From IMG/VR virus record IMGVR_UViG_3300031658_000002, positions 14,905 through 78,904 of that record: a DNA stretch of 64,000 nucleotides. One strand, 5' to 3'. This document shows positions 6,001-9,000 of the stretch, piece after piece (position 1 is the first letter of the stretch; the number at the start of each line of letters is the position of its first letter). This DNA comes from a virus. Position numbers: made by a program.

Positions 6001-9000
6001 TTTGTTAGAATAAAGTAATTTAGAATTTAATAAGTTTACTTCGTTAATTTTAGATTTTAAAAATCTAATAACTTTGTAAGCTTCTTCTAATTCTTCTTCA
6101 TTTTCAACAACTTCTTCTTCTTCTTCAAGTTCATCTTCTTCTCTTAATGCGGATATAATCTCATCGAGATCCATTTCCTCGTCTTCACCTTCTTCGTCCA
6201 TAGTCTCAGCGTCATCACCTTCTTCAATTTCCATTTCCTCGTCAGCTTCAGCAACAGTTGGGTCTTCACCTTCTGCTTCTTCTTCTTCTAATTCTTTGAT
6301 AATTGATTCTAGTTCTAGATCGTCTTCGTCCATGTCGTCCATCTCATCGATTTCCTCAGCCTCATCGTATGATTCTTCAGCAGGCAAGTCTTCACCTGTT
6401 TCTTCTGTTTCATCATCCGCAGAGCCAGTGTCTGCCGAGTCAGCAGTAGTGTCAGCAATAGCAACTTCTTCGTCCTCCATAGAGGTATCAGTAGTTTCTA
6501 AATCGTCTTCTTCTTCTAATTCGTCATCCATTTCTTCGGCAATCTTATTTGATAGCATAGATTGTAATTTCGGGGTGAATGCTTCTTCGAGAGCTAATCT
6601 CGCATTTGCAATGGCAGTTGAACGAACTGCTTTTGCATCGGCAATTGCCTCTTTTAATAAGTCTTTTGACATTATCATTCTCCTTTAATTTGTTTGTTCT
6701 GGAAATAAGGTTATTAGAAACCTTAATAGGGTAGTTATAGTTTTGTGCATTGTATTATATAGAGATAATACTTTTTGTATACACCTAAATCCTATATAAA
6801 TATACATGACAATCATTAAAGACTAAAAAAGAGCCTATAAAAAGCTCTTCTTTATTAAAAATATTTGTTTATTGTATGTTATCTAGCTTGGCCGTCAAAG
6901 ATACCTACCCAGACGTAACCTTTACCATATCGCTTACTCATCTTATCTCTGTACTGTTCAGTCCTAACTGCCTCTTCTTTCTGAATCCTTCTCTTTTCGC
7001 TAGGCTTAATGTACTCCCTCTTGTCTCTGTACTTTGTGATCTTCTCAGTATCTTTCAATTGTCTTTTTAGATACTTCAAAGCTCGCTCTAATGAATATGA
7101 ACTTGAATCTGGTATCTTGACTGCTTCAGGGTTTCCTTCTACGTAGAAGTCGTGTCTACCAAAATGCTTCTTTTTAAAGGGCTTTTTTTGATAGTCTTTC
7201 TTTTGATAATCTTTCTTGTAATTTTTTTGCATTGTTATGTTTTATGTTAAACTTGATTTATATCTAATATAACAAAAAAAATCGACATATGAAAACATAT
7301 GCCGGCCTTTTTAATATCTGTTATTTTGCTATCTTTTTATTTAAATGTTTTACGCATCCATAAAAGAATATAATGTGTTAATTCTTTTGCAGCAGGCTTG
7401 ACATCTTCCTTGTCTGTCATAGGACCGCGTTTCCAATCTAACCATTGCATTTCAATTGCCGACAGGTGTTTATCTATAGCTTGATCATCCATAGATTCTA
7501 TGTATTCTTCGTTTATCTTACCTTCGTACATTAAATCAAACATAGTATCTTGAAGTTTAGAATCTATAAATCTACCACCTGCTTTTTCAATAGCTCTTCT
7601 TGCTTTCAATGCGTTTTTCTTAAGAACAATGAAATATCCTTTTCGTGGGCCACCCATCTTTTTTGTATATTGTGATCCTTGAGATTTTGAACCTACCGGT
7701 CTTGCATTACCTCTTGGATCTATCACTACAAATTCTCTAGATTCAGTTAATGTACTTTCGTTCATTACTATATACTTCGCAAGTCCGTTCGTATCTTTAT
7801 CTTTTATACTAAAGCCACTTAGCACTTCCCAATCAGCTACCATATCTATAAAGTCAGCCAGACCATTGACATCTTTCTTGTCAACAAGTTTGTAAAATTC
7901 TTGCTGGTCCTGTCTGTCGTTTGGCATCCATTTTTCTATTTTGTCATGCGCTAAACTAAAGTTTGGGCCTTCATTTAAAATATCTTTGAATTTAATATTT
8001 GCCATTATGAATCCCCTAATTTTTTCACCATATTATATGGAACAACTTTTGCATCGACAACAGTGCCAAGCAAGCCTTTAAAGAACTTTGAATCGCCATC
8101 ATTTTTAGCAATCTCATGTTTCAAATGGCTTATTAAAACGTTACAGTCTTTTTCAAACTTTTTCATAAAGCTTTTGTCCATTGGAGCTTCAGTCAATTCT
8201 GTTTCTTGTAGGTGTTTTTTTGCAGCGTATGCTTTCTGTACATCTTCCAATGTAGGTAAAGCTTTACCAGAAGTGCGATCCCATGCAGCTTCTTTTAAGA
8301 TATTATTAAATTTTCTCTTTGCACCTTCTCTTACGATATCTCTATATTCACCATCGTTAACGTGCTTCGCTTTTTTCAACATATCTCTATAATAATCTCT
8401 TACTTCTTTCATATAATTTGCAACATAATCACGTCTCCAATTATCAAGATCTCCATCTGGATCTATAGCTTTAGATCTAACCGCCGCTTTTTCTTTTTCT
8501 TCAGCAGCGAATTCCACCTTATACCTAACATATGAGTCAACCATTCTTGCGTATGCATCTGTTACTGATTTGTATGTATCCCACGATGTTTGATATTTGC
8601 CTTTTTTAAGCATCTGCGTGTTTTTAGCTATTGACTGCTGAACTACCTTTGCAGCATCGGCCATCAACTTATCCATACCTTCTGCACCTGTTGCTGCAAC
8701 CTTGAGCGTTAAAGCTTTTTTGTATTTTGCATGATTCCTGTTAGCGTGATCTACAGCTGACATAAGAGCAGTGGCACCTTTTTGAGCTTCAGCTCTAGCC
8801 GCTTGTTTTTCTTTTGCTGATGGTATATCTGATAAAGCTATAGTTAGTACTCTGTCAGCTACTTCAGAATATCTTTTGTAATTGTCAACTGACTGCTGTT
8901 GGTTACCTACCATATTTGGTGAAGAAGAATATCTCTGCTTCGGCCAGTACATAGATTTTTTACCTATAGTAATTCCTATGATACCTTTCGAAAGCTGGCC

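What the first reader, a model, noticed from the sequence alone, without database searches (positions are those of the whole stretch)
6879..7294. Phage bS21 lacks the Tyr associated with anti-SD sequestration and has its own host-type promoter
Seen: a bS21 gene inside the head cluster with its own TTTC-N19-TATATTAG promoter and terminator, no SD (leader ..ACATAAAACATAACA-ATG), a Lys-rich repeated N-terminal extension (YKKDYQKKDYQKK) and a C-terminal extension. Aligned on KPS, it reads KPSEKRRIQKEEAVR, with Arg where Flavobacterium bS21 (recalled as KPS......QKAAY) has Tyr. Established: in Bacteroidia ribosomes bS21, bS18 and bS6 sequester the 16S anti-SD, with the bS21 C-terminal region and Tyr contributing, and phage bS21 genes near head genes have been reported. 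Inference: the protein is made by host RNA polymerase and unmodified ribosomes, then swaps into 30S subunits and frees the anti-SD.
Basis: partly seen in the sequence, partly recalled or inferred. Interest (0 to 1): 0.8.

Follow-up and report, generated by a model that had tools for sequence, protein, structure and literature searches.

The report
Phage bS21 with Shine-Dalgarno late genes
An uncultured marine T4-like phage, probably of Flavobacteria-type bacteria whose ribosomes ignore Shine-Dalgarno start signals, carries its own ribosomal protein bS21 without the host's masking tyrosine, among capsid genes that do carry such signals; this gives phage bS21 a testable but unproven job as a ribosome re-tuner.

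Summary
Window 6879-7232 (-) encodes a 117-aa bS21 homologue (Pfam 35 bits, cut-off 27) between the prohead genes and scaffold/capsid genes of a 78.9-kb viral contig. Gapless pairwise and profile alignments put Arg90 where F. johnsoniae bS21 has Tyr54. The gene has no Shine-Dalgarno (SD) site. It sits between two hairpin terminators, behind a TTTTCA-N18-TATATTAG motif that occurs four times in the contig, once before a DNA polymerase gene.

In 40 distinct related phage loci, none of the bS21 genes has an SD, against 367 of 641 neighbouring genes. Early-type gene blocks are SD-less. Relatives that lost bS21, including the cultured Flavobacterium phage immuto, have almost no SD sites (3% with a GGAG/GAGG core). 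Loci with Arg-type bS21 have 46%.

Relatives with a Tyr-retaining bS21 still have 23%, so losing Tyr is not required. There are only two independent evolutionary contrasts. The host is inferred, from type IX secretion signal domains (T9SS) and tree position. Nothing shows that the protein enters ribosomes or frees the anti-SD.

The scan has noted this pattern before in other phage genomes, with similar verdicts. Those are AI notes, not independent evidence. I found no publication of it in the library searched.

The parts
6879..7232 (-). Phage bS21 gene, 117 aa. N-terminal basic extension (residues 1 to about 36, 7125-7232), S21 core (Pfam match residues 47-91, 6960-7094), C-terminal extension with invariant Trp108 (about 6882-6938).
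   Evidence: ORF list; Pfam 35 bits against cut-off 27; 11 close and 38 distant homologues; alignment A1; AF2 model with pLDDT 79.8, helices 45-61, 64-70 and 77-103, and a C-terminal hairpin.
6963..6965 (-). Codon AGG for Arg90, the position equivalent to Tyr54 of F. johnsoniae bS21.
   Evidence: Gapless phmmer alignment to 7jil_z; profile alignment to 7jil_z and 9i5v_9; hmmalign of 61 phage bS21 gives Arg 43 and Tyr 6.
7233..7263 (-). SD-less, A-rich leader containing the conserved GTTTAAC(A/T)AAA element.
   Evidence: Sequence; no SD motif; the element is conserved in relatives' leaders.
7264..7295 (-). Promoter-like motif TTTTCA-N18-TATATTAG ('class A'), with TG upstream of TATATT.
   Evidence: 3 exact copies in the window against 0.20 expected; a 4th copy before a DNA_pol_A gene; the TTATATTA element is conserved upstream of bS21 in relatives; sigma-70-type scan scores 9 of 12 with TG.
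7273..7304 (-). Hairpin (9 pairs) plus T-run, an intrinsic-terminator-like site ending the preceding gene. Its loop carries the TTTTCA element.
   Evidence: Terminator scan; hairpin plus T-run is conserved in relatives.
6824..6854 (-). Terminator-like hairpin downstream of bS21.
   Evidence: Terminator scan: 13 pairs, 3 of them G-C.
6795..6802 (-). Late-class promoter-like motif TATTTATA before the scaffold and capsid genes.
   Evidence: The motif recurs before structural genes, 24 times on the minus strand of the contig. The furthest of four RNA contigs, from three studies, ends at 6792, the others at 6743-6771; this is a weak hint only.
5746..6678 (-). Acidic scaffold-like gene. AGGAG at 6680-6684 suits the second ATG, at 6672.
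   Evidence: ORF; leader; syntenic 'scaf' gene in relatives.
4091..5719 (-). gp23-type major capsid protein with SD AGGAG at 5728-5732.
   Evidence: Pfam Gp23 253.7 bits; leader.
7337..8005 (-). 222-aa head-cluster protein of unknown family, upstream neighbour of bS21.
   Evidence: ORF; syntenic in relatives; its C-terminus resembles immuto gp069.
51969..52000 (-). Second copy of the class A motif.
55283..55314 (-). Third copy of the class A motif.
60356..60889 (-). Phage protein with a T9SS type-B sorting domain, used as a host indicator for Bacteroidota.
   Evidence: PF13585 42 bits (cut-off 27) and TIGR04131 36.9 bits (cut-off 35).

Best explanation
The gene encodes a phage version of small-subunit ribosomal protein bS21. 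It has a basic N-terminal extension, a C-terminal extension, and Arg in place of the Bacteroidia signature Tyr54.

Shown:
- It is a conserved, self-contained unit in the head-gene cluster.
- Its promoter-like motif is of the class found before a DNA polymerase gene, it has terminator-like hairpins on both sides, and its leader has no SD.
- It is surrounded by late genes that have canonical SD sites.

Inferred:
- It is transcribed before the late genes.
- It is translated by unmodified, SD-blind host ribosomes.
- It takes the exchangeable bS21 site on host 30S subunits.
- It leaves the 16S 3' tail (the anti-SD) free, or freer than host bS21 does, so that SD-led late mRNAs for capsid, scaffold, portal and tail proteins are initiated efficiently. 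This would be a temporal translational switch.

The Tyr-to-Arg change probably strengthens this effect and does not create it.
For: - Identity and Tyr site.
- SD split within the contig: 30 of 60 genes below 54 kb have an SD against 2 of 19 above 54 kb (p = 0.0027; background 7%). The SD matches of 5 nt or more are 5-7 nt long, mostly (19 of 22) 5-8 nt from the ATG.
- The same block pattern appears in two near-complete relatives, G001 and G003.
- Family-wide, 0 of 40 bS21 genes have an SD against 367 of 641 neighbours, in constant synteny upstream of scaffold and capsid on the same strand.
- The upstream hairpin, T-run and TTATATTA element are conserved. Class A motif statistics are, and polA carries the same motif.
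- Capsid tree: bS21 is ancestral in the lineage and was lost twice, in the immuto clade (43 rows) and in L143. Both losses go with SD-less genes.
- Core SD (GGAG/GAGG) frequency: 3.1% without bS21 (23 of 738), 23% with Tyr-type (26 of 112), 46% with Arg-type (227 of 492).
- Flavobacterium phage immuto has no bS21 and 2 of 44 genes with an SD.
- Host-like Tyr-type bS21 in other viral contigs goes with 0 of 26 and 1 of 15 SD-led genes.
- Host evidence: a T9SS type-B domain in this contig; T9SS type-A domains in 4 of 5 large relatives; immuto, isolated on Flavobacterium, lies inside the tree.
- Published basis: Bacteroidia sequester the anti-SD with bS21, bS18 and bS6, and Tyr54 stacks on A1534 (Jha 2021, PMC7797042). 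Y54A and deletion of the C-terminal region raise strong-SD translation 3- to 5-fold with little effect on SD-less mRNA (McNutt 2023, PMC9976891). A phage bS21 can enter E. coli ribosomes (Mizuno 2019, PMC6375957).
Against: - There is no experimental or structural evidence that this protein enters ribosomes or frees the anti-SD.
- Five related loci with a Tyr-retaining extended bS21 still have SD-like sites, so loss of Tyr is not required.
- LR756508 has a non-aromatic (Met) bS21 in the same position but 4 of 56 SD-led genes.
- Only two independent loss events support the bS21/SD association, and the sign test cannot reach significance.
- The host is inferred, not shown.
- The phage carries a permuted tmRNA, a gene form typical of Alphaproteobacteria, some Betaproteobacteria and Cyanobacteria.
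- The outgroup Microcystis phage Mel-JY01 has a Lys-type bS21 at the same place and 16 of 42 SD-led genes. bS21 plus SD could therefore be an inherited trait from SD-using hosts.
- About half of the late-region genes have no SD.
- One gene behind a class A motif (51721-51939) has TGGAG.
- The published Y54A effect is modest, about 3-fold.
Confidence: 0.5

Rival explanations
1. Generic ribosome takeover without anti-SD release. The phage bS21 replaces host bS21 and favours phage mRNAs, or keeps ribosomes working late in infection, through other surfaces such as the N-terminal helix or the extensions. This is the model proposed for freshwater Bacteroidetes phages. The SD-like motifs on late genes would then have another cause.
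For: Chen 2022 proposes this for phage bS21 that keep an aromatic residue at the Tyr54 site. Tyr-type relatives in this lineage also carry the gene in the same place. LR756508 has bS21 but no SD use.
Against: It does not explain why SD sites appear only where phage bS21 is present and vanish where it was lost. It does not explain why the bS21 gene itself is always SD-less. It does not explain why SD frequency rises from Tyr-type to Arg-type loci.
Confidence: 0.22
2. Host mirroring. The bS21-bearing phages infect hosts that read SD sites normally (non-Bacteroidia, or an SD-using lineage of the wider Bacteroidota-related group). Their bS21 is simply the ordinary basic type, and SD use and bS21 presence both follow host lineage.
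For: The Arg/Lys site is the common state outside Bacteroidia (Jha 2021). Mel-JY01 from Microcystis has a same-place bS21 and SD-led genes. The tmRNA is of the permuted form. T9SS-type sorting domains are, as I recall, not strictly limited to Bacteroidia.
Against: Early-type gene blocks are SD-less with A-rich leaders in this contig and in two near-complete relatives. The bS21 gene is SD-less in all 40 loci. A T9SS type-B domain is present here and type-A domains in 4 of 5 relatives. The cultured Flavobacterium phage immuto is nested in the tree beside Tyr-type loci. A phage's tmRNA form need not match its host's (PMC9004378).
Confidence: 0.15
3. Non-ribosomal use. This would be a very basic small protein derived from bS21 that serves as a prohead-core or packaged nucleic-acid-binding protein, in keeping with its place between the prohead genes and the scaffold.
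For: It lies in the head module. It has a Lys-rich N-terminus. Chen 2022 raised possible encapsidation of phage bS21.
Against: It has a non-late promoter class and no SD, unlike every abundant virion gene around it. The S21 core, including the KPS motif and helix pattern, is conserved under the Pfam model.
Confidence: 0.06

Closest known systems
bS21-encoding freshwater myoviruses of Bacteroidetes (Chen et al. 2022, ISME Commun 2:31, PMC9723584)
   Same: A phage-encoded bS21 lies within a region that holds terminase, portal, prohead protease and capsid genes. A Bacteroidota host is predicted. The idea is substitution into host ribosomes to serve late protein production.
   Different: [quoted passage not shown] SD use by late genes was not reported. 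Here the site is Arg, the gene is on the same strand as the head genes, the protein has N- and C-terminal extensions, and late genes are SD-led.
F. johnsoniae bS21 and its Y54A and C-terminal-deletion mutants (Jha 2021, PMC7797042; McNutt 2023, PMC9976891)
   Same: It is the best solved-structure match in the pairwise search and second in the profile search, with the same core and KPS motif. The mutants show that altering this region frees the anti-SD and raises SD-dependent initiation.
   Different: That is a cellular protein of 64 aa with Tyr54/Ile55 and an SD-led, autoregulated gene. The phage protein has Arg90/Thr91, 117 aa and an SD-less gene.
Flavobacterium phage vB_FspM_immuto (NC_055915)
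   Same: It is the closest cultured relative by capsid protein (46% identity). Head-gene order is the same and it has the same TATTTATA-type late motif.
   Different: It has no bS21 anywhere in its genome, and only 2 of 44 genes around its capsid gene have an SD motif.
Microcystis phage Mel-JY01 RpsU and uncultured phage LR756508 bS21
   Same: Each has a bS21 gene on the same strand, 2-4 genes upstream of a capsid gene that is 46-47% identical to this one. The insertion site is therefore old.
   Different: Mel-JY01: 75 aa, Lys at the site, a weak SD on its own gene, a cyanobacterial host. LR756508: 79 aa, Met at the site, SD-less genome region.
Pelagibacter phage HTVC008M bS21 (Mizuno et al. 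2019, PMC6375957)
   Same: It is a marine T4-like myovirus with a bS21, and that protein was shown to enter E. coli ribosomes.
   Different: It is host-like (54% identical to Pelagibacter bS21), the host is an alphaproteobacterium, and no link to SD use was proposed. Its capsid protein aligns over only 44% of this one, at 32% identity.

Membership tests
Ribosomal protein bS21 (Pfam PF01165 / NCBIfam TIGR00030) | Score above the curated family threshold | tested here: met
   PF01165 scores 35 bits against cut-off 27, E 1.2e-08. The stricter equivalog model TIGR00030 is narrowly missed, 27.8 against 28.95, as expected for a divergent paralogue.
Ribosomal protein bS21 (Pfam PF01165 / NCBIfam TIGR00030) | Helical core with the conserved K-P-S/T motif between helices | tested here: met
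   KPS lies at residues 76-78. Lys76 is invariant and Pro77 nearly so in 28 relatives. AF2 helices are 45-61, 64-70 and 77-103. Alignments to solved bS21 chains are gapless.
Ribosomal protein bS21 (Pfam PF01165 / NCBIfam TIGR00030) | Incorporation into the 30S subunit at the platform/neck | not testable with these tools
Bacteroidia-type, anti-SD-sequestering bS21 | Signature Tyr54 (stacks on A1534), with Ile55 contacting the 3' tail | tested here: not met
   Arg90 and Thr91 occupy these positions. Across the family the site is Arg 43, Ala 7, Tyr 6 and others 5.
Bacteroidia-type, anti-SD-sequestering bS21 | Own gene carries a strong SD (autoregulation in many Flavobacteriales) | tested here: not met
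   There is no SD here or in any of 40 distinct relatives.
Phage bS21 clades a-e of Chen et al. 2022 | Aromatic residue at the Tyr54 site | tested here: not met
   Arg90.
Phage bS21 clades a-e of Chen et al. 2022 | [quoted passage not shown] | tested here: not met
   It is on the same (minus) strand as all head genes here, and in nearly all relatives.
Phage bS21 clades a-e of Chen et al. 2022 | Located among terminase, portal, protease and capsid genes; Bacteroidota host | tested here: inconclusive
   The location is met. The host is supported only indirectly, by T9SS sorting domains and the tree position of immuto.
Bacteroidota primary-sigma promoter (-33 TTTG / -7 TAnnTTTG; consensus recalled from the literature, not checked here) | Match to both elements at the usual spacing | tested here: inconclusive
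   TTTC-N19-TATATTAG matches 8 of 10 specified positions. Some relatives have TTTGGA at the upstream element. The motif also fits a sigma-70 extended -10 promoter, 9 of 12 with TG. It recurs 4 times in the contig, but at that stringency distant relatives and immuto match at about control level.
Intrinsic terminators flanking the gene | G+C-containing hairpin followed by a T-run | tested here: met
   7304-7283 has 9 pairs followed by 8 T. 6854-6824 has 13 pairs, 3 of them G-C, with a T-rich 3' arm. The upstream hairpin is conserved in relatives. Function was not tested.

The most novel reading that the evidence does not exclude
Phages of SD-blind Bacteroidia carry a bS21 variant that turns host ribosomes back into SD-reading ribosomes. 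This would create a phage-private initiation channel that is switched on after early and middle expression and drives bulk synthesis of virion proteins. Loss of the bS21 gene would then force loss of SD sites from the whole late regulon, as seen in the immuto clade.
Probability: 0.45. Interest if true: 0.9.

Novelty: new variant of a known kind. Interest (0 to 1): 0.8.

Why it matters
[quoted passage not shown] The pattern here points to a concrete function: re-enabling Shine-Dalgarno recognition in hosts that have silenced it.

- The bS21 gene is SD-less and separately signalled.
- It is embedded in SD-led late genes.
- Early genes are SD-less.
- SD sites disappear where the gene was lost.

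Reporters, strains and ribosome structures to test this already exist for F. johnsoniae. If it holds, it would be a new kind of viral takeover, a temporal switch made by changing the ribosome's mode of start-site selection. It would also explain why SD sites occur at all in phages of Bacteroidota.

Tried and rejected
- tblastn of the bS21 protein and megablast of window 4000-10000 against 50,697 phage records found nothing. Two phage records do hold a bS21 in the same place, found only through capsid synteny and the Pfam model.
Relatives were reached through IMG/VR scans instead.
- Complex prediction (phage bS21 with F. johnsoniae bS6 and bS18) was not available.
- Foldseek of the AF2 model against PDB gave no match with E up to 0.001, as expected for an isolated extended helical protein.
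- The genome-contig scan with the T9SS type-B protein gave one locus, in a MAG labelled Competibacteraceae, matching only the sorting domain at 40% identity. It is uninformative for the host.
- Metatranscriptome contigs from 3 studies cover relatives' capsid and scaffold genes and stop 3-50 nt after the TATTTATA motif. bS21 is covered by a single low-depth contig. Contigs cannot rank genes or map starts, so this is a weak hint only.
- Searching the exact class A motif in immuto and four distant relatives gave matches at about control level, so the exact consensus is limited to the closer clade.
- The independent-pairs test on the capsid tree found only 2 contrasts, too few for significance.
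- My first regex typing of the Tyr site mislabelled Mel-JY01. It was replaced by hmmalign.
- Tyr94, one helical turn after Arg90, was considered as a shifted substitute for Tyr54. It is conserved only in the close subclade (9 of 36), and no alignment supports a 4-residue shift.
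Full report
WHAT IS THERE

The window is bases 14905-78904 of a 78.9-kb IMG/VR viral contig, estimated 45% complete. Nearly all genes lie on the minus strand.

Window 6879-7232 (-) is an ORF of 117 aa. It matches Pfam Ribosomal_S21 at 35 bits (cut-off 27) over residues 47-91. It falls just under the NCBIfam equivalog cut-off, 27.8 against 28.95.

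Its neighbours on the same strand form a T4-type head module:
- large terminase, 13929-15506
- gp20-type portal, 12104-13909
- prohead serine protease, 10124-10756
- three proteins of no known family
- bS21
- an acidic scaffold-like protein, 5746-6678
- gp23-type capsid protein, 4091-5719
- PhoH, 3323-3985

The protein begins with a Lys-rich stretch (MQKNYKKDYQKKDYQKKPFKKK) and ends with KGYVWVGIFDGQAR. Both extensions are conserved in homologues, and Trp108 is invariant in an alignment of 28. An AlphaFold2 model (pLDDT 79.8) gives helices 45-61, 64-70 and a long 77-103, followed by a small C-terminal hairpin.

THE TYR54 SITE

phmmer against all PDB chains ranks F. johnsoniae bS21 (7jil_z) first. 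It aligns query 40-98 to chain 4-62 without a gap, so Tyr54 falls on Arg90 and Ile55 on Thr91.

A profile of the family gives the same register. The conserved A-x-R of the phage family lies on A-I-Y of 9i5v_9 and A-A-Y of 7jil_z, on A-A-R of S. aureus bS21, and on A-V-K of another bS21 chain. The phage protein therefore has the ordinary basic residue and not the Bacteroidia signature tyrosine.

hmmalign of 61 related phage bS21 gives Arg 43, Ala 7, Tyr 6, Asn 2, and Glu, Lys and Met 1 each. Tyr94, one helical turn later, is conserved only in the closest subclade.

The published background was read here, not recalled:
- Tyr54 stacks on A1534 where the 16S 3' tail turns towards bS18 and bS6, and it is uniquely conserved in Bacteroidetes (PMC7797042).
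- Y54A and a C-terminal deletion raise translation of strong-SD mRNAs 3- to 5-fold in vivo and in vitro (PMC9976891).
- All 61 phage bS21 of Chen et al. keep an aromatic residue there (PMC9723584).

SIGNALS AROUND THE GENE

Upstream, the preceding gene ends at 7337. A 9-pair hairpin plus T-run follows at 7304-7273. Next comes TTTTCA-N18-TATATTAG at 7295-7264, and then a 31-nt leader with one G in its last 20 nt and no SD. Downstream lies a weaker hairpin at 6854-6824. The motif TATTTATA at 6802-6795 then precedes the scaffold gene.

The TTTTCA-N18-TATATTAG motif occurs 3 times exactly in the window, against 0.20 expected even with one mismatch allowed. A fourth copy lies 4 nt before the ATG of a DNA_pol_A gene elsewhere in the contig. 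A near-copy (TATATTAT-ATAC-ATG) precedes a weakly Toprim-like gene.

TATTTATA without the upstream element precedes structural genes. Two promoter-like classes therefore exist, and bS21 belongs with the replication-gene class.

The hairpin, T-run and TTATATTA arrangement, and a GTTTAAC(T)AAAA leader element, are conserved upstream of bS21 in relatives whose proteins are only 34-66% identical.

Which polymerase uses the motif is not shown. It fits the Bacteroidota -33/-7 consensus (recalled from the literature) at 8 of 10 positions, and it fits a sigma-70 extended -10 promoter about as well.

THE SD SPLIT

- In the contig, 32 of 80 genes have GGAG, GAGG or AGGA at -18 to -5, against a 7% background.
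- Below window position 54 kb it is 30 of 60. Above 54 kb (small early-type genes, DNA ligase, nucleotidase) it is 2 of 19 (p = 0.0027).
- SD matches of 5 nt or more to the 16S-complementary sequence are 5-7 nt long, mostly (19 of 22) 5-8 nt from the ATG.
- Two near-complete relatives (147 and 134 kb) show the same long SD-less blocks beside SD-rich structural regions.

RELATIVES

An IMG/VR scan with the family alignment gave 57 loci. In 40 distinct ones bS21 sits on the same strand directly upstream of the scaffold and capsid genes. None of the 40 bS21 genes has an SD, against 367 of 641 neighbouring genes (p = 8.5e-15).

A second scan with a capsid alignment led by Flavobacterium phage immuto gave 80 more loci. 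Most lack bS21. Those with enough upstream sequence to judge absence have SD frequencies at or below background.

Immuto itself, isolated on Flavobacterium sp. LMO8, has no S21 match in its genome, and only 2 of 44 genes around its capsid gene have an SD.

On a capsid tree of 87 rows, bS21 is present in the outgroups (Mel-JY01, LR756508) and in all basal branches. It is absent from one well-supported clade of 43 rows that includes immuto, and from L143. Both absences coincide with SD-less genes. That makes two independent contrasts, both in the predicted direction but too few for a test.

Frequency of a core SD (GGAG/GAGG) by group:

| Group | Genes with core SD | Share |
|---|---|---|
| No bS21 | 23 of 738 | 3.1% |
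| Tyr-type extended bS21 (L122, L124, L125, L131, L138) | 26 of 112 | 23% |
| Arg-type bS21 | 227 of 492 | 46% |
| Other non-aromatic bS21 | 77 of 184 | 42% |

- The five Tyr-type loci belong to the same phage bS21 family and synteny. They keep host-like C-terminal sequence (for example AAYIQ in L138) and still show SD-like sites, mostly the weaker AAGGA kind. Loss of Tyr therefore goes with stronger SD use but is not needed for it.
- LR756508 has Met at the site and 4 of 56 SD-led genes.
- Short host-like Tyr-type bS21 in other viral contigs go with 0 of 26 and 1 of 15 SD-led genes.
- The Microcystis phage Mel-JY01 has a Lys-type bS21 in the same place, a weak SD on that gene, and 16 of 42 SD-led genes. 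The bS21/SD pairing could therefore have come from SD-using hosts.

HOST

There is no direct evidence. The indirect evidence for Bacteroidota is:
- a phage protein with a T9SS type-B sorting domain (PF13585 42 bits; TIGR04131 36.9 bits against cut-off 35)
- proteins of about 1000 aa with a T9SS type-A domain in 4 of 5 large related contigs
- the cultured Flavobacterium phage nested in the tree beside Tyr-type loci
- SD-less, A-rich early leaders

Against this, the contig carries a permuted tmRNA (Rfam RF04321, 57.8 bits). Three of five large related contigs carry one too. That gene form is typical of Alphaproteobacteria, some Betaproteobacteria and Cyanobacteria. However, two-piece tmRNAs are common in marine phages and need not match the host (PMC9004378).

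Sequencing runs that hold the stretch are marine metagenomes.

MECHANISM AND ODDS

Shown: the gene, its conservation, its separate signals, its lack of an SD, the non-aromatic Tyr54 site, and the co-occurrence with SD-led late genes.

Inferred: early or middle transcription, translation by SD-blind ribosomes, exchange into 30S subunits, release of the anti-SD, and preferential initiation on late mRNAs.

I put this at about 0.5. The rivals are:
- generic takeover without anti-SD release, 0.22
- SD-using hosts, 0.15
- a non-ribosomal head protein, 0.06

NOVELTY

Phage bS21, its place near head genes, and the idea of ribosome substitution are all published. The papers I read and my full-text searches did not connect phage bS21 with SD-led late genes, or describe this extended non-aromatic family.

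Earlier notes of this scan report the same pattern in other phage genomes, with the same verdicts. They are AI notes and were not used as evidence. The T9SS lead came from one of them and was tested here.

Noticed in passing
window 54289-54633 (-): Permuted (two-piece) tmRNA gene. Rfam RF04321 scores 57.8 bits at 54380-54589, and ARAGORN reads the tag GEHVEMAMAA**. It is conserved in 3 of 5 large related phage contigs (67-73 bits). A second translation-related gene in a phage that also carries bS21; the gene form is not the one expected of Bacteroidota hosts.
   Followed up: partly
window 60063-62080 (-): Run of four small genes: DUF6150 (47 bits), a protein with a T9SS type-B sorting domain and a weak PKD-like match, a PKD_6 protein, and one without a family. 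They look like phage proteins exported by the host type IX secretion system.
   Followed up: partly
L071 1404-1440 (contig 1404-1440) and window 32616-32650 (-): TTGTTATATTA(G/T)-ATAC-ATG lies 4 nt before the start codons of a DNA_pol_A gene and a weakly Toprim-like gene. If the motif is a -10/-7 element, these mRNAs would be leaderless or nearly so.
   Followed up: partly
window 57606-57816, 59400-59510, 59961-60062 (-): Three near-identical intergenic repeats (AACCCGCTAAAAG-TTTTCA-N20-TATTTATAGTATAAATA...) precede SD-less early-type genes. They form a third promoter-like class that combines the TTTTCA element with TATTTATA.
   Followed up: no
window 53454-54305 and 55556-56314 (-): Weak LAGLIDADG_3 (20.4 bits, under cut-off) and GIY-YIG (23.2 bits) matches flank the tmRNA region. 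These may be homing endonuclease genes.
   Followed up: no
window 6672-6684 (-): The scaffold-like ORF starts M-I-M. AGGAG at 6680-6684 is 1 nt from the first ATG but 7 nt from the second (6672), so the real start is probably 6672.
   Followed up: partly
window 7337-7450 (-) and L059 18343-18570: The C-terminus of the 222-aa neighbour (...WLDWKRGPMTDKEDVKPAAKEL...) resembles the 75-aa immuto gp069, which sits at the place where this phage has bS21. This is a conserved small head-module domain of unknown function.
   Followed up: no
window 7238-7252 (-), and relatives L002-L038 upstream of bS21: A GTTTAAC(T/A)AAAA element lies in the bS21 leader, 8-20 nt before the ATG. It is conserved across relatives with only 34-66% protein identity. 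It could be a leader or transcription-start element specific to this gene.
   Followed up: no
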